Source: a virus
DNA length: 64,000 nt
IMG/VR virus record: IMGVR_UViG_3300045988_167063
Reading direction: 5' to 3' (one strand)
The notes beneath the pieces were generated by a model that saw nothing but the letters and a program-made list of their open reading frames with translations, did not search any database and was not told where the DNA came from. Numbering within the stretch: the stretch's first letter is position 1; each line of letters starts with the position of its first letter. Shown one piece after another: positions 12,648 to 29,947 of the stretch. The position numbers were made by a program, and so were the translations under genes.

Positions 12648-12648
12648 A

Positions 12649-15962: not shown

Positions 15963-17772
15963 AGCCATTAGTCCTATCTTGTAAATCCGTTCCAATACAA
16001 TTCACAGCCACAATATTCTCACTAAAAGGAAAATATTTTTGCATCTCTTTTGAGTAAGTATTTTTTAAATAACAAATATTATTTGGACTGTTTTGAGGTG
16101 ACCTTATACCACATAAATATTCTCCGTCATTAAATCTTGTAGTATAACATTGAATAGTTCCCTGCTCTTGTTCAAAGCAAGGGTCTTTAGTCCAATCCTC
16201 GCCAACTGCATATAACAGTAAAGCATAGGGGTTTCCACACATTGTCAAATTATCTGCATTGACAGTTATTTTGCCTTTACGCAATTTTTCAACATAAGCA
16301 AAAATAATTTTTCGCTTTTCAGTTCTAAACCACTTACTATTTGCAAAATCTTTATTTTGATTATATAAATCTGCCATCATTTCATAATGATTTATTTCAT
16401 TTGCATTTAATCTTAAAAACTTTTCAAACTCATCGTTATCTTGCTTTAACTTTTCAACATACGCTACACTATATTGAGCAAGTTCTTTAATTTCATCTTT
16501 ACTACAAGGCAATGAATTAACCATTTGATAACTCATTTGTTGAACATTTCCGAGTTTACTTTTATGGTCTGTTTTAACGATACCAAAAATGCTGTTGTCA
16601 GCCTTTATTCTATCACACCAATATTTATAAGGGTTATCCCCCATAAGCTCTGTAAACTTTTTCCATTTAATCGCATTGTCTGTTGTAATAACTTTAATAT
16701 TTTTTGCTAAATGTTTCACGCCAAACATATCTTCAATTTCAAAAGTTTCATAATCAACATTGTTTTCAATACACCAATCTTTTAAAAATTGTTGTAAATT
16801 AGTTCTAAATCCACACATTTTAAAAAAATGATTTCTTAACAACATCATTCCGTTGACATATTTAGGCATTATAGAAGTTTCAACTAACCCCATACCATCC
16901 CATAAAGTATTTTTTAGATTAACATTTTCTTTATGTACGACACATTTTTTAGTTGGTACTCGTATTTTTTTAAATACTCTTTTAGGCTTTTTACCTTGAC
17001 TTAAAGCTTTTTGTCTATTAATTTCAGTTTTTTCTGTATCAATAACTTTTTTCTCAACAAAATACTCTTCAGCTCTAACAATATTTGCCATTGTTTGAAA
17101 ATAACTATCTTGGTCTTTTAAAATTAAAATATCCTCAACAGGAATATGAATGTTCCCTACAATAGTGCTTGTAGTTAAAGGGGCATAAGCAGACATTTCA
17201 ACAATTTTTGCCTTTTTTTTATCCATTTTGTTCCCCAAACCCATAGTAAGCCATTCGTATGCTGTTTTATAATACTTTTCGTTAATAAAGATAGATTGCC
17301 CGACTTTAGCTTTTGAGGGCGTTCTAAAGAGCATTTTATAATGAATTGTTTGTGTCTTTTTTATTGCTCCGTTCTTATCTCTTGTCACATAATCAATAGA
17401 AACACCATTTTGATAATATTCATCTCTTATTTCTTCCATACTCTTTTTTATAAATTTATCTTTATTCTCGTGTACTGTATTTAAAATTTCATTTAATCGT
17501 TCTAATGATTTTTCATCTGCTTTTTCAATAAGCGTTTCTATCTGTTGTACTTTTTCTTCATAAGACTTTGAGCCAAAGTCAAATTCAAGACAAACAATAT
17601 CTCTTGTAGACTCACCTTTGTAAACATTAAGACCTTTATTTATAATATAATTACTAAACAATGAATTATTAAACATTGCGTCAGTATAATCAAGCCTATC
17701 CCTTACTCCGAGATTATATTCATAAAGCGTTCCTGCCTTAATATTTTTAATTTTTATTCCAAACTCGGACAA
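15963..17772 (-). CDS. YonO/RdRP-like two-barrel RNA polymerase, exon 1 of 2
   Basis: Ends ...CGIRSPQNSPNNICYL-(about 40 aa)-IVAVNCIGTDLQDRTNG. This resembles the R-x-P-x-x-H-P-G-D-I strand that precedes the DxDGD loop in RdRP/QDE-1/YonO-type enzymes. 1810 + 974 nt gives 928 codons. Confidence 0.55.
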
Positions 17773-18056: not shown

Positions 18057-18160
18057 TTCGTTCCACACGATTTCGTTATTCTCCTTTCGTGTTATAGATT
18101 ACTTTTATGCTTTGATATTGAAATTTGTAAGCACAAAAGTAAATTTTCAATCTTTTCTTA

Positions 18161-18189
18161 ATTATACCATATTTCATTGTAAAAGTCAA
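18161..18189 (-). promoter_or_regulatory. sigma-A-type promoter for the minus-strand block
   Basis: On the minus strand: AAAAAAACAC-TTGACT-17 nt-TGgTATAAT. This is the same consensus as the plus-strand promoter family. Confidence 0.6.
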
Positions 18190-18194
18190 GTGTT

Positions 18195-18225
18195 TTTTTA
18201 CTTTACCACTTTTTTACTTTACCAC
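18195..18225. repeat. tandem direct repeat TTTTTACTTTACCAC x2
   Basis: Copies at 18195-18209 and 18211-18225. They sit immediately upstream of the -35 of the minus-strand promoter, where they read GTGGTAAAGTAAAAA on that strand. Confidence 0.8.
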
Positions 18226-18272
18226 TTTATTTTTTATATATTTATATATACTTTATAATATAATATAATACT

Positions 18273-18294
18273 TATATATATATATATATATATA
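18273..18294. repeat. (TA)11 microsatellite
   Basis: An uninterrupted TA dinucleotide run in the core of the 18.1-18.4 kb palindromic region. Confidence 0.95.
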
Positions 18295-18330
18295 TTATAT
18301 TTATATTAAATAATAATAATTAATATAATA

Positions 18331-18413
18331 ATATAGACAAGGAATGATACCAAATCCTGAAAAATAATGCAAATTTCCATTATTTTAATATGTTTTGTCA
18401 ACGATAAAAGGTA
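18331..18413. repeat. about 83-bp element, copy A (related to the 28.0-28.2 kb palindrome arms)
   Basis: ATATAGACAAGG..GATACCAAATCCTGAAAA..AAATTTCCATTAT..TGTTTTGTCAACGATAA aligns with the reverse complement of 28021-28100 and with 28131-28212. A weaker inverted partner lies at about 18095-18180. Confidence 0.6.
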
Positions 18414-18816
18414 CTTATTTTAAAGAGGCACTATAAAAATCAATAATGAAATAATATATAATTTACATCTTTTTAAAGAAATCTTTGGGAAATTATCGGC
18501 TTTTCGTAAGAAAAGCTTTAATCGAAAAAGTTAAGACACGATAGTGGCTTAATTTTTTTGTCAAAAGTTAAGGAGCGTAGCGACTTAACTTGCGACAGCC
18601 TTGTGAAATCTTATGAGGAATATTTATTTTTAATATTTATAAATTAAATTTTATATTATATAATAAAATATATAATAAATATATTAATATATAAATTATA
18701 ATATAATAAGATAATCTAATAAATAATATAAATAAAAACATTTTAAACATATTCTATTAACTTGATATGTAATATGATACAGTTAAATTTCAATCACAAT
18801 TTTTTTAAAAAAGTTC

Positions 18817-18845
18817 TTGACATTTAGATAAAACTATGGTATAAT
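18817..18845 (+). promoter_or_regulatory. sigma-A-type promoter
   Basis: TTGACA (18817-22), 17-nt spacer, TGgTATAAT (-10 at 18840-45), with an A-rich upstream tract. Confidence 0.65.
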
Positions 18846-18864
18846 TAAGAAAATCGACAAAGAG

Positions 18865-19788
18865 GTGATATTTATTGAATTAGAATTTGATAAAAAATAT
18901 AAATATCAACAACTATGTAGTATCTTTCAGCTTGAAGTTAAAAGAGGTTCGGCACAAAGAACTCAAATAAGTAAACTTAAAGAAAAGTATGATATTGAAA
19001 AAGATAATGGCTTTTATATTATTCATAGAGAATATTCACAAGAAGAACAATTAGATAATATAAAATATCATAAATATAAAAAACTTATTGAGCCTATGTT
19101 ATATACCATTTTGTCGCAGCCGAATAAAGATGTGATAAGAATGGATATGCACGAACTTATGGAGTTTTTAGGAATAGTCAATAAAGATTATCATTATGCT
19201 AAATATCATCCAAAAGAATGTATTGAGCAAATTGATAAAGGTACGGTCGCAGGACTTACTATATTTTCAAGAGAAAGTGAACCTTTATTAAAAAGAATTA
19301 TTGTAGATGTTCTTAAAGATATGCAAAGAAAATGTTTAATTAAAGTTAATATGATACCTATGTTTGCCAAAAAGTATATCAACAACGAGGATGGCAAATT
19401 ATATACAAAAGTATGGGAAGCAAATAAAATAACAGAAATTCCTAAATTACTTGAGGCTAAAAGGTTAGTCCTTAAAGAATTTAACATTGAATATTGGGAT
19501 GATTTACAATATAATCAATTTGGGAGAGCAAAAGATATTATTGCAGAACAATTAGGTATTGATTATTTTTATTATGAATATGAATTGATATTAAATAAGC
19601 AAGGACTTAATGAGTTAATTACTGAAAATTACACGGAATTAAAAAAAGCTCTTAATAAACACATTCAGTCAAAAACTAAAATGTCAAAACAAGGAAATTT
19701 AAAATTCCTTACAGACAATGAAAAAAGTGTTTACATTGAGCATTTTATCAATACTGAAAAAGATTATAGATTGAGGGATAAAAAATAA
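18865..19788 (+). CDS. hypothetical protein (first early gene)
   Basis: 307 aa with a GTG start close behind AAGAGG. No motif was recognised. Confidence 0.5.
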   Translation: MIFIELEFDKKYKYQQLCSIFQLEVKRGSAQRTQISKLKEKYDIEKDNGFYIIHREYSQEEQLDNIKYHKYKKLIEPMLYTILSQPNKDVIRMDMHELMEFLGIVNKDYHYAKYHPKECIEQIDKGTVAGLTIFSRESEPLLKRIIVDVLKDMQRKCLIKVNMIPMFAKKYINNEDGKLYTKVWEANKITEIPKLLEAKRLVLKEFNIEYWDDLQYNQFGRAKDIIAEQLGIDYFYYEYELILNKQGLNELITENYTELKKALNKHIQSKTKMSKQGNLKFLTDNEKSVYIEHFINTEKDYRLRDKK

Positions 19789-19891
19789 AAAATGAATATA
19801 GATTTTAAATATTTATACGAAAAGAAAAGATTAAGACTTAGTTCAAAGAAAGGTCACATTGATGAAAAATTATTAACGAAAGGTAAAAAAT

Positions 19892-20029
19892 ATGACAATA
19901 AAAGAATTGATGAATAAATTAAACCAAATTGAAAATAAAGACTTACCAATTAAATATTTTAGTTACAATGGCTATACTAAGACCATTGAAAATATTGAAA
20001 TAAAAGATAATTATTTGGAGGTAAAATAA
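19892..20029 (+). CDS. hypothetical small protein (45 aa)
   Basis: Hand-found ORF MTIKELMNKLNQIENKDLPIKYFSYNGYTKTIENIEIKDNYLEVK. TAATG overlap with the next gene. Confidence 0.35.
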   Translation: MTIKELMNKLNQIENKDLPIKYFSYNGYTKTIENIEIKDNYLEVK

Positions 20030-20403
20030 TGACTTGTAAAGAAAATATTAAATGGCTTGAAAGCCTTAAAAAAGAGTTAGAACAAAGCCAATATCAATGT
20101 TTATGGCATTATGAGCAAGCATTAGCAGAAACTATTGAACTATTGCAAAGCGACAGGCTTGTTGAACTGCCTTGTAGAATTGACGATAAAGTCTATTATA
20201 TAATAATAAAAAGATATGTTCCTTTAACATACAAGATAGTAGAAGCCAAAGTACTTGATTATAACATTAATAGATACGGAATTTGTGGTGTGAAAATAAG
20301 ACCGTTAAATTCAGAGTATACATTCGAAACAAATATTGATAAGATATTTCTCACTAAAGAAGAAGCAGAAGCAAAGTTAAAGGAGTTGAACGGCAATGAT
20401 TGA
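20029..20403 (+). CDS. hypothetical protein, paralogue of 50921-51442
   Basis: Shares VELPCRIDDKVYYI and FLTKEEAEAKLKELN with the other copy (VELPCRVGEEIYVL and FRTKEEAEEKLKELN). GGAGG RBS. Confidence 0.6.
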   Translation: MTCKENIKWLESLKKELEQSQYQCLWHYEQALAETIELLQSDRLVELPCRIDDKVYYIIIKRYVPLTYKIVEAKVLDYNINRYGICGVKIRPLNSEYTFETNIDKIFLTKEEAEAKLKELNGND

Positions 20404-20542
20404 TGAAACTTTAGAACTTACACTTGACGAAGTGGAATATATAATTGCGTTCATTCGCAGTCACGAATGGAATGACATACCTGAAACATTAAAAAGTAAA
20501 ATTTTACCGAAGTTAGAAAATTTCTGTGATGAATGTTATTAA
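20396..20542 (+). CDS. hypothetical small protein (48 aa)
   Basis: Hand-found ORF MIDETLELTLDEVEYIIAFIRSHEWNDIPETLKSKILPKLENFCDECY. Its start overlaps the upstream stop. Confidence 0.35.
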   Translation: MIDETLELTLDEVEYIIAFIRSHEWNDIPETLKSKILPKLENFCDECY

Positions 20543-20562
20543 TCAAAGGAGTTGAATGAAAA

Positions 20563-20877
20563 ATGAAAGAAAATTTAATGTTGTTTTTTACTTTCTTTGG
20601 AATAATATCTTCAGTTATAGTATTAGTAACTATCATAATGTTTATTATAATGGCGGCATATTATTTTATCACAGAAAAAATTGAAGAATTGAAATATGAT
20701 TATAAAGCCAAGCATCGTTTCGATAAACCACCATTAGCTAATTGTTATTGCATAGATTGCAAGTCTTACAATCGTGAAAATGAGAGATGTTATAGGCTTA
20801 ACCGAAGCACAGCAGATAATTGGTTTTGTAGTTGGGCAGAAAGGAAACGAGTAGAAAATGAGCAAGAAAAAGCGTAA
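20563..20877 (+). CDS. hypothetical membrane-anchored Cys-rich protein
   Basis: 104 aa with an N-terminal hydrophobic helix, then CYCIDCKSYNRENERCY. AAAGGAG lies 10 nt upstream. Confidence 0.55.
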   Translation: MKENLMLFFTFFGIISSVIVLVTIIMFIIMAAYYFITEKIEELKYDYKAKHRFDKPPLANCYCIDCKSYNRENERCYRLNRSTADNWFCSWAERKRVENEQEKA

Positions 20878-21076
20878 GTTTAGGGTTATGACTCTTGATG
20901 AATATTGTACTTATAGAAAAACGGGGTGTAATGGCTGTGAGTATCGCCAAAGTTTAACTTATTATGATTATTACTGTGATTATTCAAACTTTAATAAAGT
21001 AAATCGAGAGCGTGACAAAAGTAAGCCTTACAAAACAAAAGACGGCAAATACATATTGATTGAGGTAAAAGAATAA
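20858..21076 (+). CDS. hypothetical Cys-rich protein
   Basis: 72 aa, co-oriented and overlapping its neighbours. Confidence 0.5.
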   Translation: MSKKKRKFRVMTLDEYCTYRKTGCNGCEYRQSLTYYDYYCDYSNFNKVNRERDKSKPYKTKDGKYILIEVKE

Positions 21077-21342
21077 TGACAGAAAGTAATGTATTTTTAA
21101 AATTTGGTGCATTGAGTAACGATTTTAATACTCAATTCAAACAGCAAGGTTATGAATTGAAAAACAAAAAAATACCTATCCAATTCACCAATATGGTTAC
21201 AGTTGTCCGTTGTAAAAATTGTAAACATTATATCACAAACACAGAATTATTAGGCAATGTATGCAATCGCTTGTTTACAGTATTTCCAATGAAACCCAAC
21301 GATTTTTGCAGTTATGGAGAACGGAAAGGAGAGCAAAAATGA
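21076..21342 (+). CDS. hypothetical Cys-rich protein
   Basis: 88 aa with CKNCKHY...CNRL. GAGG RBS. Confidence 0.5.
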   Translation: MTESNVFLKFGALSNDFNTQFKQQGYELKNKKIPIQFTNMVTVVRCKNCKHYITNTELLGNVCNRLFTVFPMKPNDFCSYGERKGEQK

Positions 21343-21827
21343 GAGAGATTTTATTTAGAGCAACGGATTTGTCAGGTGTTAACAATCGCTCTTGGGTTTT
21401 TGGCAGTTTAGATACAACTGAAAATGAATATACAATAATGATTTACCCCGACAGATTTGGTAACAAGTGTAGAATTTTTGTTGACCCTAAAACAGTAGGG
21501 CAATACACAGGACTGATTGATAAAAACGGCAAAAAGATATTTGAGGGTGATATTGTTCAGTATTTAACTTATGATGAATTTGATTGTCAATCTGTCGTTA
21601 AATTTGGCAAATACAAACAAGACGGTAGTGAAGGTGAATATAAAGCGAGTGACTGTTTAGGATTTTATGTTGAAGTAGATAATTTTACTTGCCCCGATTG
21701 GTGTGATAACGAACCTGAAAAATTTCACGATTACTTGGAACAGCAAAGTTTAGCAGAGATAGCGAGTCGATGCGAAGTTATTGGCAATATACACGATAAC
21801 CCCGAATTGTTGGAGGTAAAAGAATGA
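21339..21827 (+). CDS. yopX: YopX-family protein
   Basis: MREILFRA...TVGQYTGLIDKNGKKIFEGDIV...IGNIHDNPELLE is the characteristic YopX pattern. I prefer the ATG at 21339 (GGAAAGGAGAG RBS, ATGA overlap) to the track start at 21261. Confidence 0.75.
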   Translation: MREILFRATDLSGVNNRSWVFGSLDTTENEYTIMIYPDRFGNKCRIFVDPKTVGQYTGLIDKNGKKIFEGDIVQYLTYDEFDCQSVVKFGKYKQDGSEGEYKASDCLGFYVEVDNFTCPDWCDNEPEKFHDYLEQQSLAEIASRCEVIGNIHDNPELLEVKE

Positions 21828-22027
21828 ATAATTTTGAAGATATTAAAAATAAAAACATTCAAGAAATGGCTGAATGGATAGAGGAAATATTTTCAAGTAA
21901 CCCCTGTTATTGTTGTGTAAAAAAAGATATTGATAAATGTCATTATTATGAAAAAAATTATTATGATAGAATAGAACTTTGTGTCGAAAATAGAAAATTG
22001 TGGCTTGAAAGTGAGGTAGAGGAATAA
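21824..22027 (+). CDS. hypothetical protein, paralogue of 50745-50924
   Basis: 67 aa. MNNFEDIKNKNIQEMAEWI...LWLESEVEE compares with MTNFERIKNMSVEEMASEI...KWFESEVEE. Confidence 0.55.
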   Translation: MNNFEDIKNKNIQEMAEWIEEIFSSNPCYCCVKKDIDKCHYYEKNYYDRIELCVENRKLWLESEVEE

Positions 22028-22290
22028 TGGCAGGAATTATAGCAAAGCAACCTAATGGCTTATATTGTAGAATTTCAACCATAATTGACGCACCTACACA
22101 TTCCAATATGACAAAACAAGATTATATTGATATGTGTGTTGAAAAAGCAAAAGAAGAAGCTGAAAGTGTACTTGAAAATTATTGTTATGATTTTGATAGA
22201 GCATTAACATATATCAATTATGGGGATAATACAAATATGACAAATGAAGAATATGAACAATTTATTAAATATTGTAATACAAAACCTTAA
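22027..22290 (+). CDS. hypothetical protein
   Basis: 87 aa with TAATG coupling. Confidence 0.5.
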   Translation: MAGIIAKQPNGLYCRISTIIDAPTHSNMTKQDYIDMCVEKAKEEAESVLENYCYDFDRALTYINYGDNTNMTNEEYEQFIKYCNTKP

Positions 22291-22304
22291 GGGAGTGATT
22301 AAAT

Positions 22305-22643
22305 TTGGATAGAAGAATTATCGCCGTTGATTTTGACGGCACATTATGTGAAAGCAATTATCCTTATTGTGGCAAACCTATTATGCCTGTTATCAGAGCT
22401 ATTACCGAAGAAAAGAAAAAAGGGTCAATTATTATTCTTTACACTATGAGAGAAGGCAAGGAACTTGATTTGGCTTTAAAATGGTGTAAATGTTATGGCA
22501 TTGAATTTGATGCCGTAAATGAAAATTGTCAATGGGCAAAAGAATACTTCAATAACCCACGAAAAATATTTTATACTGAATTATGGGATGATAGGGCATT
22601 TAATGTTGACGATATTATTAGACTATATAATCAATTTTGTTAA
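22305..22643 (+). CDS. HAD-like small phosphatase/nucleotidase-like protein (putative)
   Basis: 112 aa. IIAVDFDGTLCE matches HAD motif I (DxDGT). TTG start after GGGAG. Confidence 0.4.
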   Translation: MDRRIIAVDFDGTLCESNYPYCGKPIMPVIRAITEEKKKGSIIILYTMREGKELDLALKWCKCYGIEFDAVNENCQWAKEYFNNPRKIFYTELWDDRAFNVDDIIRLYNQFC

Positions 22644-22798
22644 TGAATATGAATTATGAATATAGAATTTATGAAGTTAGTTCACAATACAGGCAAGGAA
22701 AAGTATTAAAAGATTATAAAAATTACAATAATGCTATTGCTCATATGAAAAAATCAATTTTTAAATTTATAAAAGAAATAAAAATAATAAAGGAATAA
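22643..22798 (+). CDS. hypothetical small protein (51 aa)
   Basis: Hand-found ORF with TAATG coupling to the upstream gene. Confidence 0.3.
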   Translation: MNMNYEYRIYEVSSQYRQGKVLKDYKNYNNAIAHMKKSIFKFIKEIKIIKE

Positions 22799-22803
22799 AA
22801 TAA

Positions 22804-22968
22804 ATGTTATTTAAAATAATAATTTCAGTTATGATTTGGTGTTTTGTGTTGAATTTGCCTCTTATATATGAACCAGCAGATATAACACCTAAACAATTTC
22901 GTATTTTTTGTTGGTATGAATTTATTGTTTTAATTGTTGGAACAATTATTATATTTAATTTAAAATAA
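22804..22968 (+). CDS. hypothetical small membrane protein (54 aa)
   Basis: Hand-found ORF MLFKIIISVMIWCFVLNLPLIYEPADITPKQFRIFCWYEFIVLIVGTIIIFNLK, with two hydrophobic segments. Confidence 0.35.
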   Translation: MLFKIIISVMIWCFVLNLPLIYEPADITPKQFRIFCWYEFIVLIVGTIIIFNLK

Positions 22969-22971
22969 CTC

Positions 22972-23000
22972 TTGACAAATTGATATTTTTATGGTATAAT
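22972..23000 (+). promoter_or_regulatory. sigma-A-type promoter
   Basis: TTGACA (22972-77), 17-nt spacer, TGgTATAAT (-10 at 22995-23000). Confidence 0.65.
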
Positions 23001-23337
23001 AAGGGAGAAATCTCGAAAAGGTGTATTATTAAGCAAATAAAAATCTCGATTTGGTGATAATACGCATAATTAGATTTACTAAAATAACCAATAAAACGCA
23101 AAATAATGTTTAAAAATATGAACGGAATTAAGAATTATGTTTGTATTTTTAAACATAAAAAGATTGGACTAAAGATGATTGGGATAGAGAAGTAGCAAAA
23201 TTTAAGGCACAAGGATGTGAATTATTTTGATTGTAGAAAAGCAAATATTATTTAAAAATGGAAACAAAATCAATTTAATTGAACCTAAAGAAAGTTATCG
23301 TGGAAAAAATCATTTTAAAACAAGAAAGGAAAAATCA

Positions 23338-24363
23338 ATGATATATTTTGACAACGCAGCGACAACACCACTTTCGGAAAATGTCAAAAATGATATAAAA
23401 AATAACCTTGATAATTTTGGCAATCCGAGTTCTATATACTCAATCGGTTTTAAATCAAAAGAAATTATTGAAAATGCAAGAAAAAAAGTTGCCGAATGTA
23501 TAAATTGCAAGCCGACAGAAGTTTTTTTTACAAGTGGTGCTTCTGAAAGTAATACTTGGGCATTGCAAGACTTATTTTGGTGTAACCCATTTGAACACCA
23601 TAGTATTTTAAATAACCCAAACAAAGTTTATAAAACAAGAGATGCTTATATTATTACTTGTATGCTTGTAAACAATGAATTAGGAATTGATTTTACTGAT
23701 TATCTTGCAGAATTAAGACAAAATTCCTCAAAACAAATTCATTGTGATGCTACTCAAGCAATCGGCACACTTGATGTTGATGTTCAAAAATTAGGTGTTG
23801 ATACAATGTCATTTAGTGGGCATAAATTTCACGCTCCTAAAGGAACAGGAGTATTATATATAAAAGAGGGAATTGAATTGCCTCGAACAATTTATGGTGG
23901 AAAGCAAGAAAGTGGCTTGAGAGGTGGCACAGAGAATATTTTAGGCATTTCTGCTCTTGGTGTTGCTATTCAAGACGCTTATAATAACCTTGAAAAGAAA
24001 AATCAACATTGTGAACATCTTAAAAATGTTTTTCTTAATAAATTAAAGCATTATTGGAGTTTAGATTATGAAATAAATGCTACTAAATATGATACTGTGC
24101 CAAATATTATAAGTTTTTCGCTAAAAGATATTGAAAGTGAGCCTATTTTGACTCAACTTGACCTTGAAAATATTTATGTTTCAAGTGGTTCAGCTTGTAA
24201 TACAGGCACTCTTGAACCGAGCGAAACGCTAAAATGGTATGGTATTCCTGAAGATTACATAAATGGAACAATTAGGGTTTCATTCGATTTAGAAAATACT
24301 GAAGAAGAAATTGATATTTTCTTACATAAATTAGCAGAAATTGTAAAGAGGGTAAAAAATTGA
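23338..24363 (+). CDS. NifS/IscS-type cysteine desulfurase (class V aminotransferase)
   Basis: MIYFDNAATTP at the N-terminus, the PLP-lysine motif SFSGHKFHAPKG and the catalytic-Cys loop SSGSACNTG. The track ORF starts at a TTG at 23227, but the family normally starts at the IYxDNAATT block. Confidence 0.8.
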   Translation: MIYFDNAATTPLSENVKNDIKNNLDNFGNPSSIYSIGFKSKEIIENARKKVAECINCKPTEVFFTSGASESNTWALQDLFWCNPFEHHSILNNPNKVYKTRDAYIITCMLVNNELGIDFTDYLAELRQNSSKQIHCDATQAIGTLDVDVQKLGVDTMSFSGHKFHAPKGTGVLYIKEGIELPRTIYGGKQESGLRGGTENILGISALGVAIQDAYNNLEKKNQHCEHLKNVFLNKLKHYWSLDYEINATKYDTVPNIISFSLKDIESEPILTQLDLENIYVSSGSACNTGTLEPSETLKWYGIPEDYINGTIRVSFDLENTEEEIDIFLHKLAEIVKRVKN

Positions 24364-24638
24364 AGTTTGTAAGACCGAGTTTATTAAAATTTGAATTTAC
24401 ATACAAAGATATATATGATGAACTACATAAAAGAGTTTTTGAGTCAAAAGATTATGAAAATTCGACAAATAGTTTGCTAAATATTCATAAAGACATTGAT
24501 GACTTTATTGATACATTAAAAAGTTATAGTCCTAAAGATGTAATTATGAATTTTAATGGTGAATATACTGTGGGGTTAGAGGATATTGAAATTGATTTAG
24601 GAATTATTTTTAATGCTATTTCGCCAAAAAATTCATAA
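24360..24638 (+). CDS. hypothetical protein
   Basis: 92 aa with a TTG start overlapping the desulfurase stop. Confidence 0.45.
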   Translation: MKFVRPSLLKFEFTYKDIYDELHKRVFESKDYENSTNSLLNIHKDIDDFIDTLKSYSPKDVIMNFNGEYTVGLEDIEIDLGIIFNAISPKNS

Positions 24639-24744
24639 AAGGAGTCAAGATAATGCTTTATTTTATGGTACTAATTACAATAGTCATAATATTTATTATT
24701 TCTGCTTATTCTAACCCACGAATAAACCATTAAAGGAGTTAAAT

Positions 24745-25008
24745 ATGATTAAATATGATAATATTGAATATTTTGATGAGCCGATATATAAAAATTTGAC
24801 CGAAATTCAACAAGGTGATGTAATTTATACTGAATTTGGTGATTATGGCAATTATATTCAAGCAATTTTTGATGATTTTGAAAAGACAAAACCTAATATA
24901 TCAAAGATTTCTTTTCATTATCCAGACGGAAGATTTGATGAAATGTATGGATTTTTAAATATCGACACGACAGAATATAAAATTATAGGAAAGGAAATAC
25001 AAAAATGA
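24745..25008 (+). CDS. hypothetical protein
   Basis: 87 aa with an AAAGGAG RBS. Confidence 0.55.
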   Translation: MIKYDNIEYFDEPIYKNLTEIQQGDVIYTEFGDYGNYIQAIFDDFEKTKPNISKISFHYPDGRFDEMYGFLNIDTTEYKIIGKEIQK

Positions 25009-25211
25009 CAGAAAAAGTCTATGAAAATACTGATTATACAACAATAAATCAATATCTTGAAGTAACAATTGGTACAATTTGTGATAAAATTGAGGACACT
25101 ATTATTCAAATGACCTGCACCGACCATAAGAGGCAACGAGAAAAATTAAAGGATATTTGCCAATGCTATATTGATGACATTTATACAATTATAGGAATGA
25201 AAGAACAATAA
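25005..25211 (+). CDS. hypothetical protein
   Basis: 68 aa with ATGA coupling. Confidence 0.5.
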   Translation: MTEKVYENTDYTTINQYLEVTIGTICDKIEDTIIQMTCTDHKRQREKLKDICQCYIDDIYTIIGMKEQ

Positions 25212-25414
25212 TGAAATTATATTTTAGAGACTCAAACAGTAAAGAACTTAAATTTGTAAGAGAGGTAGACTCTCAACAAGAAGTTTTTTACGAAATTAGA
25301 AAATATGCCAAAGAAAATAACATTGATGTCTACTACATAAGAACTTTTGGCACTGATAAAGTGACAACTTATGATTTTGGTAGTCATTTAGACTTTTTTG
25401 AGTTACATAAATGA
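25211..25414 (+). CDS. hypothetical protein
   Basis: 67 aa with TAATG coupling. Confidence 0.5.
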   Translation: MKLYFRDSNSKELKFVREVDSQQEVFYEIRKYAKENNIDVYYIRTFGTDKVTTYDFGSHLDFFELHK

Positions 25415-25493
25415 AAATGATAAATTTTATAAAATCAATAATTAAATTCATAAAAGACCCTATGTGGTTATTTTAAAACAAAGAGGTGATTAA

Positions 25494-26015
25494 ATGGAAA
25501 CAGTTAAATTTGCAAAAGTTAAAGAAAACGCAATTATTCCTACAAAAACCAATGAAAATATGGGATATGATATTTATGCTTGTTTTGACGAGGACTATAT
25601 TGAAATTCGCCCACACGAAACAAAGCTAATTCCGACAGGTATTGCAAGTTGTTGTAGTGATGAATATGGATTTATTATTAAAGAGCGTGGTTCAACAGGT
25701 TCTCAAGGCATTGCTGTTCGCTGTGGTGTCATTGATAGCGGTTTTAGAGGGGAATGGTTTATTGCTCTTACAAATACTACAGCAGAAACAATGAGAATTA
25801 CTAAAAAGGTCAATAAAGTGCAACAAGGTGTTGCATATAGTGGTAAAGAGGAAAAATATTATCTTGGAACTAATAAAAATGTAGACTTCGTTCAAAATGA
25901 CCCATTTGTTTATGGTGAAACTTTAAAACTTTATCCATATAATAAAGCTATCGCCCAAGCTATTCTTGTGCCTGTGCCAAAGGTTAAGGTTGAAGAAGTC
26001 ACCTATATGAATTAA
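25494..26015 (+). CDS. dut: dUTP diphosphatase (trimeric dUTPase family)
   Basis: Contains NMGYDIYA, IKERGSTG and GVIDSGFRGEW, which correspond to dUTPase motifs 1-3. AGAGGTG RBS. Confidence 0.8.
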   Translation: METVKFAKVKENAIIPTKTNENMGYDIYACFDEDYIEIRPHETKLIPTGIASCCSDEYGFIIKERGSTGSQGIAVRCGVIDSGFRGEWFIALTNTTAETMRITKKVNKVQQGVAYSGKEEKYYLGTNKNVDFVQNDPFVYGETLKLYPYNKAIAQAILVPVPKVKVEEVTYMN

Positions 26016-26067
26016 AATCAATTAAATCAGACAGAATGAACGGTCAATTAGGGAGTAGTGGAAAATA

Positions 26068-26256
26068 ATGAAAATTTCAACTAAAATGTTAATTGCTACA
26101 ATCATATCGGCAATATTATCTATTACTTTTTGTACAATTAGAGCATTAGTACCTGTTCTCGAAAATGGTTTTGTGCCATTAGCGATAATGAGTTTAGCAG
26201 TCTTTTTTGTATCTTTTTTTGCTTGGATATTTGAAACTTGTTATCCTCTTAATTAA
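26068..26256 (+). CDS. hypothetical small membrane protein
   Basis: 62 aa with two hydrophobic helices. GGGAG RBS. Confidence 0.55.
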   Translation: MKISTKMLIATIISAILSITFCTIRALVPVLENGFVPLAIMSLAVFFVSFFAWIFETCYPLN

Positions 26257-26261
26257 AATAG

Positions 26262-26741
26262 ATGGCAACAATGAAAAATAAATATAAAATAAATAAACTC
26301 AAAAGAGATTTATCCTATTGCAAACACGGAAGTTTAAAATATAGGCTTAAATATTTCTTTAAAGCCTTTAAAAATGCCTTTCATCGCTTTATTTACGGCT
26401 ATGATGACCGAGATTGGTATGATTACTATTATAGCTTTATAGAACGCAATATGGCTTTATTTCAAGAACTTGTTAATAATGTTGAGTTGACAAAAACAAA
26501 CGAAAAATATTGTTGTGGTTGTTTGCCCATAATTATTAACGGTAAAAGAATAGGTGATATGACTGTCGAGCAAACACAGGAATTTTATACCGAACTTATC
26601 AAACTATTAAAAGACATTGATAAATTTGAAAATTCAGACTTTGGTGATAAAAATTATATTGAAAAATATAAAAAAGCAAAAGAAAGCCTTAACGCTTATT
26701 TTGACATTATGAAAGAATATTTTTGGGAGTTATGGGATTGA
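26262..26741 (+). CDS. hypothetical protein
   Basis: 159 aa. No motif was recognised. Confidence 0.5.
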   Translation: MATMKNKYKINKLKRDLSYCKHGSLKYRLKYFFKAFKNAFHRFIYGYDDRDWYDYYYSFIERNMALFQELVNNVELTKTNEKYCCGCLPIIINGKRIGDMTVEQTQEFYTELIKLLKDIDKFENSDFGDKNYIEKYKKAKESLNAYFDIMKEYFWELWD

Positions 26742-26959
26742 TGATAGATGATGAAACGCTATTAAATATAGCAATTACTGAAACTTATAAAAGATTTGCT
26801 ATGCGAGGAAGTTCTAAAAGTCTTGTAACTCCAACATTATATGCATTAAAATTATATAGTTGGTTAAAGACGGAAAATCAACTAAACAAATATAATTTTA
26901 ATTTACCCAAAGAACGAATAGCAATGAATTTAAGGAGGAATAGTTTTGATAGATTATAA
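26723..26959 (+). CDS. hypothetical protein
   Basis: 78 aa. The start is uncertain because several in-frame ATGs lie at 26723-26744. Confidence 0.45.
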   Translation: MGVMGLMIDDETLLNIAITETYKRFAMRGSSKSLVTPTLYALKLYSWLKTENQLNKYNFNLPKERIAMNLRRNSFDRL

Positions 26960-27347
26960 AAGATATGTTATTTTATTAGGCTTTGACAATACAATAAAAA
27001 GTTCTAAGGAGGTCTTTCCTTTTCTTATGAGTGGCACTGACCTTAATAATGCCCTTCGTCACTTTTTAGACCTTGAATGTGGTATTCCTTTCCACAAAAC
27101 AGATAATCTTACCACATATGAACTTATTTCTAAAATTCCACAAATGGTATTGAGTATTTATGAATTAAAACTCGACAATATGATTTATTTTGGAGATAAT
27201 AAAGAAGAGCTTACAAATAAAGATGAGACTAAATCTATAAAAGATGTTAAACCCACACCTGTTTTAAAACAATATAAACACGGGAAGATTGTGGTTTCAT
27301 CATTAGAATTAAAAGATGAGAACGGAAATACTATATTGAATTTATGA
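26946..27347 (+). CDS. hypothetical protein
   Basis: 133 aa with a TTG start after GGAGG. Confidence 0.5.
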   Translation: MIDYKRYVILLGFDNTIKSSKEVFPFLMSGTDLNNALRHFLDLECGIPFHKTDNLTTYELISKIPQMVLSIYELKLDNMIYFGDNKEELTNKDETKSIKDVKPTPVLKQYKHGKIVVSSLELKDENGNTILNL

Positions 27348-27528
27348 AAATAATAATCAAACCTAAAGCAAAGGTGAAAGACAAAAGACTTATTTGCCCC
27401 TTTTGTGGAGAAGATAAGCCTTTTATCCGCTACATAAAGAAAGGCATATTAAATCGTGTATAGGTTTTATTGACACAAATGAAAGTGTTTATAAGTGCAA
27501 TACCTGTGGAACACAATGGACTAATTAA
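27344..27528 (+). pseudogene. zinc-ribbon small protein split across two frames (frameshift or -1 recoding)
   Basis: Frame A reads MKIIIKPKAKVKDKRLICPFCGEDKPFIRYIKKGILNRV and stops at 27461. The -1 frame continues ...HIKSCIGFIDTNESVYKCNTCGTQWTN and stops at 27526-28. The CPFC and CNTC halves together make one zinc ribbon. Confidence 0.45.
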
Positions 27529-27540
27529 AAAGGTGAACTT

Positions 27541-27924
27541 ATGAAAATTTATTTAAGATATAAACTATTACTTATTAAAGAATGGTTTGAAAATACTATA
27601 AAGAAAAAATATCTTGATAGTAGAAAATATAAATTATTTAAAAAGAAATATAAAAATGAATTAAATGCTTTGAGTAAGAATGTACTATCAATAGCCTCAT
27701 CTTCTGACTCTAAACTCATTAAAATTCCTTGTTATACTTTTCTTAATAACTGCAATCTTATTACTCACTCTAATATTTGTGTTTCTGACCAAGACTTTCA
27801 AGACTTTATCGAAATGATTTTATCTAAACATTTTAAACATATATTATTATGTAAATGCTTTATTTGTCACGATGGAGATATTTATGATAACAAAAATTTA
27901 ACACTCGTAATGAGATTGAAATAA
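27541..27924 (+). CDS. hypothetical protein
   Basis: 127 aa. It is the last gene of the early plus-strand block and is followed by a terminator. Confidence 0.5.
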   Translation: MKIYLRYKLLLIKEWFENTIKKKYLDSRKYKLFKKKYKNELNALSKNVLSIASSSDSKLIKIPCYTFLNNCNLITHSNICVSDQDFQDFIEMILSKHFKHILLCKCFICHDGDIYDNKNLTLVMRLK

Positions 27925-27926
27925 TT

Positions 27927-27957
27927 ATAAGTGCCTTTGTTGGCACTTATTTTTTTA
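27927..27957 (+). terminator. rho-independent terminator
   Basis: ATAAGTGCC (27927-35) pairs with GGCACTTAT (27942-50), followed by T7. Confidence 0.8.
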
Positions 27958-28022
27958 TTTTATAGATAGTTCAACTTTGAACAGCACTCAATTACATATA
28001 ATTTCCACCTTTGACCTCCGTA

Positions 28023-28209
28023 CCTATCGTTGAAAAAACATACTCAAATAACATAAATTCAACGCTACTTTCAGTTTTTGATACCAAACCTTGTCTATAT
28101 TATATATATTATATAATTTAATCCTGCCACCAGTATGACACGCTTTGGTATCAAATCCGAAAACTAAAGCTAAATTTTCATTATCTGAAACAAATTTTCA
28201 ACGATAGCA
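28023..28209. repeat. about 190-bp imperfect palindrome with a TA-rich core
   Basis: Outer arms CTATCGTTGAAAA (28024-36) and TTTTCAACGATAG (28196-208) are perfect complements. Inner arms TTGATACCAAA (28078-88) and TTTGGTATCAA (28144-54) are also perfect complements. The centre is TATATTATATATATTATATAA. Confidence 0.85.
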
Positions 28210-28337
28210 AGTCCTTAATATAAGGGGTAATTACTTTTTAGGAGTGGCTAAATATAGTAAAAAATCGGAAAAATGAAAGAAAATGTTGAAAATAATGGAA
28301 ATTGGGAATAGAGTTGCGAGTGTTGAATAGCCGAGCG

Positions 28338-28354
28338 TGTGAATAAAAATCACA
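28338..28354. promoter_or_regulatory. palindromic site TGTGA-N7-TCACA (copy 1 of 4)
   Basis: TGTGAataaaaaTCACA in non-coding DNA. Confidence 0.5.
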
Positions 28355-28659
28355 AGGGGTTGTGAATTTGAGAAACACCCCCGTTAATAGACACTTTTAT
28401 TATTTTTGTCTATTATCTTTTAAACTTTCAGCGATTCAAGCGGTAAGCGGTTAAAATCATTTAAAATCTTGTAAAAAAATGATATATAAATAATATTATA
28501 CAATGTTTTTATAAGCGGTTGAAAAAATCAAGCATTTATTAAATTGTATACTTTTTTTTGAAGATTTTTTTGTGTATTTTTAGTATACAGTGCTTTCAGG
28601 TAATCGCGTAAAGTCCAAAAAGTGTACTATACAATCAACCTATACGAATGCTTATCATT

Positions 28660-29100
28660 ATAGCCTTAATCTATATCAATATTATATCATTACTTATATA
28701 TACTATATATCAATATATATATATATACTCTTATATATTATAGTATCTTTTAGTATAATATAACATACTCTTATTATATACCATCATATCAATATCACAT
28801 ATACAATTTTAAAAATCAATAGTACAATTTTATACACTATATATCATATTATATATAACTATATCTTTATTGATATAGTACAATTATATACACTATAATA
28901 TATATAATAATCTTAATATATAATACTTCAGTATATAGTATATTGTAATATATTATATAAGATATAATAATATATCAATATCAATTTAAAATATTAAATA
29001 TTAAAATAAAATTTAATTATTAAAAATATTGCCTATAAACCTATATAAAGCCGTTTTAATATAAAATAATGATATTATATTATTAAATATTAAAAAGTGT
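28660..29100. repeat. TA-rich low-complexity tract with internal repeats
   Basis: Almost pure A/T over several hundred bp. It contains an (AT)7 run (28713-27) and a 23-nt repeat ATAGTACAATT(T/A)TATACACTATA at 28819-41 and 28875-97. Confidence 0.8.
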
Positions 29101-29160
29101 TTATATAAGCGTCAGAGAGCCTGACTTTAATGATTTAGCGTATTAAAGTGGGCAGGCAAT

Positions 29161-29188
29161 AAAAAAAAGCCTTGCATTATACAAGGCT
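29161..29188 (-). terminator. rho-independent terminator of the reverse cassette
   Basis: On the minus strand AGCCUUG/CAAGGCU is followed by U8. It lies 10 nt after the stop of 29198-29425. Confidence 0.8.
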
Positions 29189-29197
29189 TTAAAAATT

Positions 29198-29425: not shown

Positions 29426-29439
29426 TTTATACCCTCTTT

Positions 29440-29844: not shown

Positions 29845-29918
29845 AATAAATACCTCCGTTTAACGCCCGTCGGCTTATTCTTTTTAACTCTTGGCGTTAC
29901 GCCCTTCGTTCTGTCTAT

Positions 29919-29947
29919 ACTATAACACGCATCCGCCGATTTGTCAA
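29919..29947 (-). promoter_or_regulatory. sigma-A-type promoter of the reverse cassette
   Basis: On the minus strand: TTGACA (rc of 29942-47), 17-nt spacer, TGtTATAGT (rc of 29919-24). Confidence 0.6.

What the first reader, a model, noticed from the sequence alone, without database searches (positions are those of the whole stretch)
18095..28215. Related large imperfect palindromes with TA-rich cores bracket the 9.6-kb early block
At 28023-28209 two arms of about 85 bp face each other. Perfect complementary blocks are CTATCGTTGAAAA/TTTTCAACGATAG and TTGATACCAAA/TTTGGTATCAA, around a TA-only core.
A homologous arm (18331-18413) lies next to the (TA)11 core at 18.27 kb, with a weaker inverted partner at about 18095-18180. 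Copy A at 18.3 kb and the left arm at 28.0 kb are in inverted orientation relative to each other and flank the whole plus-strand early module.
The 28-kb element sits in 1.2 kb of non-coding DNA between convergent terminators (27927-57 and 29161-88).
Candidate roles are a replication origin with an unwinding element, a packaging or resolution site, or recombination sites that allow inversion of the early module. A tyrosine recombinase is encoded at 38268.
Basis: seen in the sequence. Interest (0 to 1): 0.65.

Follow-up and report, generated by a model that had tools for sequence, protein, structure and literature searches.

The report
Strand-specific palindrome flanking phage early genes
An uncultured ~105-kb human-gut phage carries three copies of an ~80-base element, two of them forming a conserved 190-base fold-back that is built to pair on one DNA strand only; it is most likely a replication-start signal or a small RNA, not a switch that flips the early genes.

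Summary
An ~80-nt unit occurs exactly three times in the window:
- 28023-28103, inverted;
- 28133-28213, direct;
- 18328-18413, direct, solo.

The claimed "weak partner" at 18095-18180 is not a copy. That stretch holds the leftward promoter.

The 28-kb palindrome is the best-folding stretch between 15 and 32 kb. It is strand-specific. Every transition mismatch between the arms is a G·U/G·T wobble on the minus strand and an A·C clash on the plus strand (10:0 in the window). All 9 one-sided transition polymorphisms in 11 relatives keep minus-strand pairing. The local mutation spectrum is symmetric.

The element is 97-99% conserved, while the neighbouring non-coding DNA is about 76% conserved.

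A sister clade (75% protein identity) keeps the three-site layout and the TA core. Its arms are only about 20 nt, and the whole element is flipped.

No assembly shows the 9.6-kb early block inverted. The recombinase also occurs in genomes without the long palindrome.

My best reading is an origin-type cis element whose minus strand folds when the TA tract melts (~0.4). The main rival is a minus-strand hairpin RNA (~0.25).

The parts
18161..18189 (-). Leftward host-type promoter (TTGACT-17-TATAAT, with TG) driving the YonO-type RNA polymerase and late genes.
   Evidence: no unit homology here
18225..18330 (.). TA tract 1 (2.8% G+C), including (TA)11 at 18273-18294. Its length and sequence vary between close relatives.
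18328..18413 (+). Solo unit copy 'A18' (ATAATATAGACAAGG ... GATACCAAATCC ... TTTGTCAACGATAA).
   Evidence: nhmmer E = 4.5e-20. BLAST to the inverted arm in a relative gives E = 3e-11. The first ~38 nt are conserved in the sister clade.
18414..18615 (+). Conserved island of three short hairpins (GCTTTTC-GTAA-GAAAAGC and two AAGTTAAG-N11/12-CTTAACTT). It folds better on the plus strand.
   Evidence: -57.6 versus -36.7 kcal/mol; nearly invariant against L082 and L083
18620..18745 (.). TA tract 2 (2.4% G+C).
18817..18845 (+). Consensus early promoter (TTGACA-17-TATAAT, with TG) of the 9-kb early operon.
27927..27950 (.). Terminator hairpin ending the early operon. It also scores as a terminator on the minus strand.
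28023..28103 (-). Left arm 'L28': the unit in inverted orientation. It forms the 3' arm of the minus-strand hairpin and is the copy most like A18 (72%).
28097..28136 (.). Asymmetric spacer: a 26-nt TA-only core (28097-28122) followed by AATCCTGCCACCAGTAT.
   Evidence: The core plus the 11-mer TGTCATACTGG is shared with the sister clade in the opposite orientation.
28133..28213 (+). Right arm 'R28': the unit in direct orientation. It forms the 5' arm of the minus-strand hairpin and is the more variable arm (9 versus 4 variable columns).
28213..28225 (-). Small hairpin CCTTATATTAAGG abutting the long one. Its two polymorphisms are also wobble-compatible on the minus strand only.
28226..28300 (.). 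Conserved non-coding segment (94-99% between relatives) with no convincing promoter on either strand.
28340..28420 (-). Two hairpins: a variable G+C-rich one followed by a U-run on the minus strand (two allelic forms), and the conserved AATAGACA-N13-TGTCTATT. They may block leftward transcription.
28461..29110 (.). A 650-bp TA-rich tract (16% G+C). It is variable between relatives, and several metagenome contigs break inside it.
29166..29190 (-). Strong terminator of the counter-oriented two-gene cassette (29198-29844, promoter at 29947-29919).

Best explanation
The three units are cis-acting DNA signals of two non-coding hubs that bracket the early operon. The 28-kb palindrome is most likely an origin-type replication-initiation element.

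Proposed mechanism:
1. A protein binds the conserved inverted boxes ((T)TGGTAYCAAA, and the ATAGACA box that abuts the TA core). This step is inferred; no protein was identified.
2. The 0%-G+C core, or the adjacent 650-bp TA tract, melts. This is inferred from composition.
3. The exposed minus strand snaps back into a ~190-nt hairpin. This step is the one with direct support: the arms are selected for pairing on that strand only.
4. The hairpin serves as a strand-specific signal for helicase or primase loading, or for priming. This is inferred by analogy.

The analogies are the OriS* hairpin of herpes simplex OriS, mitochondrial OriL, and the single-strand origins of filamentous phages and rolling-circle plasmids.

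The solo unit at 18.33 kb, between TA tracts in the divergent promoter gap, would be a second site for the same protein, possibly a second origin.
For: Anatomy:
- Conserved boxes lie in inverted orientation around a pure-TA core, next to TA tracts of 2-16% G+C.
- Exact copies of the box motifs occur only in the three units.

Single-strand pairing:
- In the window, 10 transition mismatches are A·C on the plus strand (G·U on the minus strand) and 0 are the reverse.
- Across 10 distinct sequences there are 112 G·U cells on the minus strand and 0 on the plus strand.
- All 9 one-sided transition polymorphisms keep minus-strand pairing. The only 3 breaks are transversions.
- The polarised transition spectrum of the neighbouring 4.3 kb is symmetric: C>T 75, G>A 61, T>C 52, A>G 48. 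Mutation bias therefore does not explain the asymmetry.
- With DNA energy parameters the minus strand also wins, -35.0 against -24.9 kcal/mol.

Constraint:
- The hairpin is 97.3% identical on average among 11 relatives.
- It is 97-99% identical to the window, against about 76% for 28300-28400 and 93-97% for nearby genes.

Insulation and lack of RNA signals:
- The element is bracketed by a plus-strand terminator on the left and minus-strand hairpin-plus-U-run structures on the right.
- It has no ORF of 50 aa or more (the longest overlapping it is 46 aa) and no sigma-70 promoter upstream on the minus strand.
- The unit alone has no conserved internal fold.

Deep conservation of layout:
- The sister clade (75% aa identity) keeps one unit start at locus 1 and an inverted pair around the same TA core at locus 2.

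Family habit:
- The cultured relative PMBT24 has a 230-bp near-perfect palindrome between TA tracts in its divergent promoter gap. It has no strand bias, so it is a DNA-level palindrome.

Precedent:
- HSV OriS has inverted boxes, an AT spacer and a single-stranded hairpin (PMC12543377).
Against: - No replication data of any kind were available.
- No initiator was identified. The first early protein (307 aa) has no family or fold match.
- The replication genes lie 14-35 kb away.
- There are no iteron arrays.
- GC skew follows gene direction and is uninformative.
- A pure wobble bias is the classic signature of RNA rather than DNA.
- The sister clade manages with arms of only ~20 nt, so the long hairpin is not essential to whatever function the layout serves.
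- Formal covariation is weak. There is one double change, matched or exceeded by 47 of 500 shuffles. That one change is confounded with loss of GGTACC sites.
Confidence: 0.4

Rival explanations
1. The palindrome is a gene for, or part of, a minus-strand non-coding RNA. The transcript would run leftward from somewhere right of 28225, fold into a ~195-nt hairpin with 11 G·U pairs plus a small 5' hairpin, and end at the two-way terminator at 27950-27927. It could act as a stable regulatory or decoy RNA. It could also act as an RNase III-type processing or insulating structure that stops spurious transcripts from the promoter-rich TA tract running antisense into the early operon. The solo unit at 18.33 kb resembles the 3' arm and could be a pairing target of the 5' arm.
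For: - The wobble-only asymmetry and the wobble-compatible polymorphisms are what RNA structure predicts.
- The RNA energy gap between strands is 25 kcal/mol.
- The adjoining small hairpin shows the same strand bias.
- The terminator at 27927-27950 also scores on the minus strand.
- A weak leftward promoter, TTGAAT-16-GATAAT, lies at 28439-28412.
- The phage has its own YonO-type RNA polymerase, whose promoters are unknown.
Against: - No convincing promoter lies between 28226 and 28340.
- Hairpin-plus-U-run structures on the minus strand lie between the weak promoter and the hairpin.
- There is no Rfam family; the only hit is a plant microRNA precursor at 26 bits against a 144-bit cutoff, which reflects shape alone.
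- The long hairpin is missing from the sister clade, and there the element is flipped.
- No expression data could be obtained.
Confidence: 0.25
2. The units mark packaging-related sites. Either this is a pac region where headful packaging starts, or the direct pair A18/R28 marks the boundaries of a ~9.8-kb terminal repeat that carries the early genes, collapsed in the assembly as in T5, SPO1 or Twort-like phages. In the second case the fold-back would help to cut an end or to copy the repeat.
For: - In PMBT24 the PhageTerm terminus, set as genome position 1, lies in the ~3-kb non-coding hub just beyond the end of the early block. This position is syntenic with 28-30 kb here (PMC11035940).
- Direct copies of the unit start bracket the early block in both clades, 9.8 kb apart here and 8.7 kb apart in the sister clade.
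- From general knowledge, not tested here: Twort-like long terminal repeats of early genes are bracketed by short inverted repeats, and T7 concatemer processing involves a hairpin end.
Against: - PMBT24 was called headful and circularly permuted, not terminally repeated.
- Its TerL is collinear with the window's at 30-35% identity.
- PMBT24's own long palindrome is about 9 kb from its pac site.
- PMBT24 has no homologue of the unit.
- A pac site needs neither a second locus nor single-strand pairing.
- The complete relative assembles as a circle with only a 72-bp overlap, which fits either model.
Confidence: 0.12
3. The units are operator sites of an early regulator. A dimeric DNA-binding protein would bind (T)TGGTACCAA-type boxes at the head and the tail of the early operon, possibly looping them. 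The palindrome would simply be two operators back to back.
For: - TTGGTACCAA is a perfect 10-bp palindrome in all three units of most relatives.
- The half-site GTACCAAA is conserved in the sister clade.
- One site sits between the divergent early and late promoters.
Against: - The solo unit is about 140 and 480 bp from the two promoters, so it does not overlap either.
- The 28-kb copies lie between terminators, with nothing to regulate.
- An operator model does not predict 80-nt arms or strand-specific wobble pairing.
- The window has mutated the box in all three copies.
Confidence: 0.08
4. The palindrome is a decaying inverted duplication thrown up by slippage or template switching in TA-rich DNA, with no function of its own. 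It could also be a small selfish palindromic repeat.
For: - Palindromes recur in the TA-rich hubs of this phage group with unrelated sequences.
- The element has flipped between clades.
- Arm identity is only about 70%.
Against: - The element is 97-99% conserved while the adjacent non-coding DNA is about 76% conserved.
- The decay is strand-biased 10:0 despite a symmetric mutation spectrum.
- There are only three copies, at fixed syntenic positions, with no dispersal.
Confidence: 0.08
5. A18 and the left 28-kb arm are recombination sites at which the tyrosine recombinase (38268-39152) inverts the whole early module.
For: - The two copies are in inverted orientation and flank the block.
- An Xer-like recombinase is encoded in the genome.
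- Small inversions have happened in this region during evolution.
Against: - Zero of 14 assemblies that span a junction show the block inverted.
- Inversion would separate the operon from its promoter-terminator logic without any evident gain.
- The sites are only 72% identical and have no dif-like core.
- The recombinase is 75% conserved in genomes that lack the long arms.
Confidence: 0.02

Closest known systems
Herpes simplex virus OriS/OriL palindromic origins (PMC12543377)
   Same: - Inverted recognition boxes flank an AT-only spacer.
- After limited unwinding, one strand folds into a hairpin (OriS*) that the initiator helicase uses.
- The genome carries more than one copy of the origin.
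   Different: - OriS is about 80 bp with a 12-bp hairpin, whereas these arms are 80 nt.
- There is no UL9-like origin-binding helicase here, and none was identified.
- The host and virus lineage are unrelated, so this is an analogy of mechanism, not homology.
Strand-specific single-strand initiation signals: mitochondrial OriL (PMC4256270, PMC6182146), filamentous-phage minus-strand origins, sso of rolling-circle plasmids, and Frpo-type ssDNA promoters (PMC11541004)
   Same: Each is a long imperfect palindrome that works only when one particular strand is single-stranded and folded, and each is orientation-specific.
   Different: - Those replicons pass through obligatory single-stranded stages. 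This is a 105-kb dsDNA phage with its own DnaB-type helicase, primase and PolIII-alpha-like polymerase.
- No promoter-like -35/-10 pair could be recognised in the folded stem.
SPP1 oriL/oriR and lambda-type iteron origins (general knowledge)
   Same: Two related origin-like sites lie kilobases apart, each next to an AT-rich unwinding region.
   Different: - There are no iteron arrays, only one or two units per site.
- The sites are not inside or beside a replication gene.
Terminal-repeat boundaries of T5, SPO1 and Twort-like phages, and pac sites of headful phages (PMBT24, PMC11035940)
   Same: - Related short repeats bracket a ~9-10-kb block of small early genes.
- The cultured relative's pac terminus lies in the syntenic hub.
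   Different: - The relative packages by headful, not by a fixed terminal repeat.
- No read-end or depth data exist for this phage.
Folded single-strand recombination sites: integron attC and CTX-phage attP (general knowledge)
   Same: Each is an imperfect palindrome that is functional as a folded single strand, with a tyrosine recombinase in the genome.
   Different: - This element is 190 nt, against 57-150 nt for those sites.
- There are no R/L-box or dif-like cores.
- The recombinase lies 10 kb away and does not co-vary with the palindrome.

Membership tests
Palindromic viral replication origin (HSV OriS type) | Inverted initiator-binding boxes flanking an AT-rich spacer | tested here: met
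   TTGATACCAAA/TTTGGTATCAA and ATAGACA/TGACA boxes are mirrored around a 26-nt TA-only core. Protein binding itself was not tested.
Palindromic viral replication origin (HSV OriS type) | A cognate origin-binding protein or helicase encoded by the virus | tested here: inconclusive
   None was recognised. The first early protein has no family or fold match. The DnaB-type helicase, primase and polymerase lie at 45-64 kb.
Palindromic viral replication origin (HSV OriS type) | Replication demonstrably starts there | not testable with these tools
GC skew is confounded by gene orientation.
Single-strand initiation hairpins (OriL, sso, filamentous-phage minus origin) | Pairing selected on one strand only | tested here: met
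   10:0 wobble asymmetry in the window. 112 versus 0 G·U cells in relatives. 9 of 9 one-sided transition polymorphisms are compatible. The background spectrum is symmetric.
Single-strand initiation hairpins (OriL, sso, filamentous-phage minus origin) | Priming or RNA polymerase recognition on the folded strand | not testable with these tools
   No promoter-like duplex was recognisable in the stem. Testing this needs biochemistry.
Iteron-type phage or plasmid origin | Three or more direct iterons next to an AT-rich region, in or beside the initiator gene | tested here: not met
   There are only three units in 64 kb, at most two per site and those inverted. There is no adjacent replication gene.
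Long direct terminal repeat boundary (T5, SPO1, Twort-like) | Two-fold read depth across the block and read ends at both boundaries | not testable with these tools
The cultured relative is reported as headful pac.
pac site of a headful phage | A unique packaging-start terminus mapped at the site | not testable with these tools
   The only pointer is indirect: PMBT24's pac lies in the syntenic hub.
Site-specific invertible segment (Hin/Gin, Fim, shufflon) | Both orientations present in populations | tested here: not met
   The early block has the same orientation in all 14 spanning assemblies. The orientation of the small element is fixed within each clade, 11/11 and 3/3.
Site-specific invertible segment (Hin/Gin, Fim, shufflon) | Near-identical inverted sites with an adjacent dedicated recombinase | tested here: not met
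   The sites are 72% identical. The recombinase lies 10 kb away and is present without the long palindrome.
Described RNA families (Rfam 15, including 6S RNA) | A covariance-model match at the gathering score | tested here: not met
   Only tRNAs pass in the window. The permissive scan gives one shape-only hit, MIR2630 at 26 bits against 144.
MITE or REP-like dispersed palindromic repeats | Many dispersed copies with presence/absence polymorphism | tested here: not met
   There are three copies at fixed syntenic positions in every relative, and none elsewhere in the 57-105-kb records searched.

The most novel reading that the evidence does not exclude
A large dsDNA phage uses a strand-specific ~190-nt fold-back, as single-stranded DNA or as RNA, whose conserved arm is a copy of a solo element in the early/late switch region. 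The two hubs would then communicate by base pairing: the variable arm would mask the unit at 28 kb or invade the one at 18.3 kb. This would couple origin firing or genome processing to the early-to-late switch. Such a thing would be an OriL- or sso-like single-strand signal, or a long-hairpin riboregulator, of a kind not described for tailed phages.
Probability: 0.1. Interest if true: 0.75.

Novelty: new variant of a known kind. Interest (0 to 1): 0.45.

Why it matters
Replication origins and packaging signals are unmapped for almost all uncultured gut phages. They are also unmapped for the newly recognised ~100-kb group of Clostridia phages that carry YonO-type RNA polymerases.

This element gives a concrete, conserved and testable candidate. 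It also carries an unusual property: it is selected to fold on one strand only. That property narrows the mechanism to a single-stranded DNA intermediate or an RNA. If the single-strand signal is confirmed, it would extend a principle known from herpesvirus, mitochondrial, filamentous-phage and plasmid origins to large tailed phages.

There is a practical point as well. The TA tracts around the element break metagenome assemblies, and the element marks where they break.

Tried and rejected
- Read evidence: the look-up of sequencing runs and read laying were closed. Orientation heterogeneity, termini, depth and transcripts could not be examined.
- Named phage collection: there was no DNA match, near or distant.
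- Nearest held record, G001: it lacks the region.
- Loose motif scan of viral contigs: it returned 81 hits, all chance by profile re-scoring. A second scan used the wrong spacer (7 N instead of 8) and found only chance hits.
- Metagenome protein scan: it added only 6 loci.
- Unit as an independent structured RNA: rejected, because there is no consensus fold on either strand.
- Homology of the islands beyond the units (18414-18620 versus 28214-28470): rejected, because local alignment scores fall within shuffles.
- A homologous long hairpin in the 75% sister clade: rejected. Folds there are weak (z = -2 to -3 on one strand) and not a clean stem. A short, flipped palindrome is present instead.
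- The 'compensatory' 28081/28151 change as proof of pairing: downgraded. All three units carry GGTACC in relatives, all three have lost it in the window, and the window has no GGTACC in 64 kb.
- Formal covariation test: not significant, because the relatives are too similar.
- Mutation bias as the cause of the wobble asymmetry: rejected.
- Function of the first early protein: AlphaFold gave pLDDT 65, and Foldseek found no hit with E below 0.04 or TM above 0.2.
- Inverted repeats flanking the flipped 134-aa cassette: none were convincing.
- Co-occurrence of the recombinase with the palindrome: rejected.

Full report
**Setting**

The window is part of an uncultured, ~105-kb, 28%-G+C tailed phage from the human gut.
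- 1-17772 (minus strand) holds late and structural genes: portal, an intron-split terminase, and an intron-split YonO-type RNA polymerase at 14099-17772.
- 18865-27924 (plus strand) is an operon of small early genes, including YopX, a class-V aminotransferase and dUTPase.
- A counter-oriented two-gene cassette lies at 29198-29844.
- Further plus-strand genes follow: an Xer-like recombinase (38268-39152), tRNAs, Sak4, a DnaB-type helicase, primase, RecJ and a PolIII-alpha-like polymerase.
- The nearest cultured relatives are the Enterocloster phages PMBT24 and CB4xx (portal 35% aa).

The phage's own assembly is not held.

Mostly yes.
- An ~80-nt unit (ATAATATAGACAAGG ... TTGGTATCAAA ... TTTTCAACGATAG) occurs three times. 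The copies are 28023-28103 (inverted, 'L28'), 28133-28213 (direct, 'R28') and 18328-18413 (direct, 'A18').
- Profile E-values are 1e-18 to 5e-21, and pairwise identity is 65-72%. An independent BLAST of A18 finds L28 in a relative at 3e-11.
- L28 and R28 form a palindrome around an asymmetric spacer. The spacer is 26 nt of pure TA followed by AATCCTGCCACCAGTAT.
- It is the best-folding 210-nt stretch between 15 and 32 kb, with z-scores of -6.7 and -8.0.
- A18 abuts a 2.8%-G+C tract that contains (TA)11.

One claim fails. The 'weaker partner' at 18095-18180 has no profile hit and does not align. That stretch holds the leftward promoter. Its resemblance to 18806-18853 is simply two similar promoters facing apart.

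**The key new fact: the palindrome is strand-specific**

- Folded as RNA, the minus strand gives -65.1 kcal/mol and the plus strand -40.5. With DNA parameters the values are -35.0 and -24.9.
- The reason is that all 10 transition mismatches between the arms are A·C on the plus strand, which makes them G·U (or G·T) on the minus strand. None is the reverse.
- I fetched ten further carriers of the element from viral and metagenome collections.
- Across 10 distinct sequences, the 79-pair minus-strand structure has 675 Watson-Crick cells, 112 wobble cells and 3 mismatched cells. On the plus strand the same positions give 115 mismatched cells.
- Nine pairs vary by a one-sided transition, and all nine stay paired on the minus strand. 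The three breaks are transversions.
- A small adjoining hairpin (28213-28225) behaves the same way.
- Polarised singleton substitutions in the neighbouring 4.3 kb are symmetric: C>T 75, G>A 61, T>C 52, A>G 48. A strand-biased mutation process therefore does not explain the pattern.

There are caveats.
- Formal covariation is weak because the carriers are about 97% identical. There is one double change, and 47 of 500 shuffles reach the observed score.
- That one double change (28081 G>A with 28151 C>T) is confounded. Relatives have GGTACC in all three units and nowhere else in the fetched loci. The window has lost all three and has no GGTACC in 64 kb. Loss of a KpnI-type restriction target is therefore a sufficient cause.
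- The mirror symmetry of the two changes adds only about a 1-in-6 coincidence.

**Constraint**

- The hairpin is 97-99% identical between the window and relatives whose nearby genes are 93-97% identical. The adjacent non-coding 100 bp is about 76% identical.
- Mean pairwise identity within the hairpin is 97.3%.
- The TA tracts on either side vary by indels.
- No ORF of 50 aa or more overlaps the element; the longest is 46 aa.
- No Rfam family matches.
- The unit on its own has no conserved fold.
- Exact copies of its box motifs occur only in the three units.

**Deeper comparison**

A sister clade (three ~105-kb genomes; 75% aa identity in the first early protein and in the recombinase) has no profile hit to the arms. 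It nevertheless keeps the layout.
- At locus 1, the TA tract is followed by ATATAGACA-N8-GTACCAAATCGTAATAAT.
- At locus 2, just after the early operon's terminator, there is a short palindrome. Its arms are about 20 nt (TTTGGTAC-RY-ACAACTGT) and they surround the same TA core.
- The locus-2 right arm repeats the locus-1 unit start (84% over 38 nt, 8.7 kb apart, direct).
- The asymmetric landmarks show that the whole element is flipped relative to the early block compared with the window's clade. The landmarks are the 11-mer TGTCATACTGG on one side and ATA(G/A)ACA abutting the TA core on the other.
- The neighbouring 134-aa gene cassette is flipped too.
- Orientation is fixed within each clade, 11/11 and 3/3.

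Three conclusions follow.
- The three-site architecture and the GTACCAAA and ATAGACA boxes are old.
- The 80-nt arms are a clade-specific elaboration.
- Small inversions happen here over evolutionary time, but nothing suggests an active switch.

**The cultured relative**

- PMBT24 shares synteny: YonO-type polymerase, then the divergent gap, then a homologue of the first early gene (31% aa), then the early block.
- Its authors placed genome position 1 at the PhageTerm pac terminus and called the phage headful and circularly permuted (PMC11035940).
- That terminus lies in a ~3-kb non-coding hub just beyond the early block. The hub has TA tracts and long G-rich and C-rich arrays.
- Separately, PMBT24's divergent promoter gap holds a 230-bp near-perfect palindrome between ~250-bp TA tracts. 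It folds at z = -16 on both strands, with wobble pairs on both.
- Long palindromes next to TA tracts are therefore a habit of this phage group. In PMBT24 the palindrome is a DNA-level feature and is not at the pac site.
- PMBT24 has no homologue of the unit.

**Weighing the mechanisms**

Inversion of the 9.6-kb early block is effectively excluded.
- No assembly shows the block inverted.
- The candidate sites are only 72% identical.
- The recombinase is present in genomes without the long palindrome.

A neutral or selfish palindrome does not fit the conservation or the biased decay.

An operator model does not explain the 80-nt arms, the single-strand pairing, or a location between terminators.

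That leaves three candidates.

1. Origin-type element (about 0.4). I favour this for five reasons.
 - The anatomy is that of palindromic origins: inverted boxes, an AT spacer, large unwinding-prone tracts and a second related site.
 - The element is shielded from transcription on both sides.
 - It has no credible promoter of its own.
 - The family pattern points to DNA-level palindromes.
 - Strand-specific fold-backs are known at origins. Examples are HSV OriS* (PMC12543377), mitochondrial OriL (PMC4256270, PMC6182146), and filamentous-phage and rolling-circle single-strand origins and Frpo-type signals (PMC11541004).
 - One geometric point fits. A fork or bubble opening leftward from the 650-bp TA tract would expose the minus strand as the lagging-strand template. 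That is the strand that folds. This last point is inference only.

2. Minus-strand RNA (about 0.25). Wobble-only bias is the textbook RNA signature. A two-way terminator lies 70 nt downstream of the hairpin. The phage's own polymerase has unknown promoters.

3. Packaging signal (about 0.12). This rests on PMBT24's pac position and on the direct repeats that bracket the early block. A fixed terminal repeat is made less likely by the headful call in the relative.

**What is shown and what is inferred**

Shown:
- three homologous units and their coordinates;
- the palindrome and its statistics;
- strand-specific pairing;
- elevated conservation;
- the conserved three-site layout, with a flip between clades;
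- absence of block inversion in assemblies;
- absence of a known RNA family, an ORF of 50 aa or more, or a promoter.

Inferred:
- protein binding to the boxes;
- melting of the TA DNA;
- which nucleic acid folds;
- any role in replication, packaging or regulation.

**Verdict**

This is a real, conserved, non-coding element of a familiar general kind: a palindrome plus AT-rich hub in a phage. It has one unusual and well-supported property, one-strand-only pairing.

Noticed in passing
window 18347-18352, 28080-28085, 28148-28153; L082 9497, 19424, 19491: Close relatives carry GGTACC (a KpnI/Acc65I-type target) in all three units and nowhere else in the fetched loci. The window has mutated all three (GATACC, GATACC, GGTATC) and has no GGTACC in 64 kb. 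This looks like escape from a host restriction system.
   Followed up: partly
window 29159-29947; L085 19660-20200; L086 18700-19240: The self-contained cassette (promoter, very acidic 134-aa protein, terminator) is on the minus strand here but on the plus strand in the sister clade. The gene order is otherwise the same. No flanking inverted repeats were found. The protein has no Pfam or PHROG match.
   Followed up: partly
L085 9600-9930; L086 9600-9900; window 18414-18615: The islands that follow the solo unit fold much better on the plus strand (-78 versus -56 kcal/mol in the sister clade, where the island is 47-50% G+C in a ~30% G+C phage). They contain short hairpins with GNRA-type loops. 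This may be an undescribed small RNA upstream of the early promoter. No Rfam match was found.
   Followed up: partly
L097 (PMBT24) 9070-9300: The cultured relative has a 230-bp near-perfect palindrome (z = -16 on both strands) between ~250-bp TA tracts in its divergent early/late promoter gap. The genome paper does not mention palindromes or inverted repeats.
   Followed up: partly
PMBT24 99530-99962 and 390-700 (L110/L097): The PhageTerm pac terminus lies at the edge of a ~400-bp G-rich array. A ~300-bp C-rich array sits about 400 bp further on, and each array is preceded by a short TA tract. The sister clade has smaller CCCAC-type runs at the same place.
   Followed up: no
L083 9484-9509: One close relative carries a 13-bp tandem duplication (GAATGGTACCAAA) inside the solo unit, which doubles the GGTACCAAA box.
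   Followed up: no
window 28340-28378 and relatives: This segment exists in two unrelated allelic forms among otherwise near-identical phages. Each form makes a hairpin followed by a U-run on the minus strand. The neighbouring AATAGACA-N13-TGTCTATT hairpin is invariant and is also present in the sister clade.
   Followed up: partly
L092 (297,692-bp contig): A homologue (81% aa) of the 127-aa last early protein sits in a 298-kb contig among NAD-salvage genes (NAPRTase, NAD synthase, nicotinamidase-like). The contig has no palindrome. This suggests exchange of the gene with a much larger phage or a host.
   Followed up: no
window 18.2-18.8 kb and 28.5-29.1 kb equivalents in L084, L094, L095, L111-L113, L115: Many independent metagenome contigs start or stop inside the TA tracts. 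These tracts are therefore systematic assembly breakpoints, and contig ends here should not be read as genome ends.
   Followed up: partly
G002 (L085 record) 1-72 and 104978-105049: The complete sister-clade genome has a 72-bp terminal overlap, so the assembly is circular although it is catalogued as linear.
   Followed up: yes
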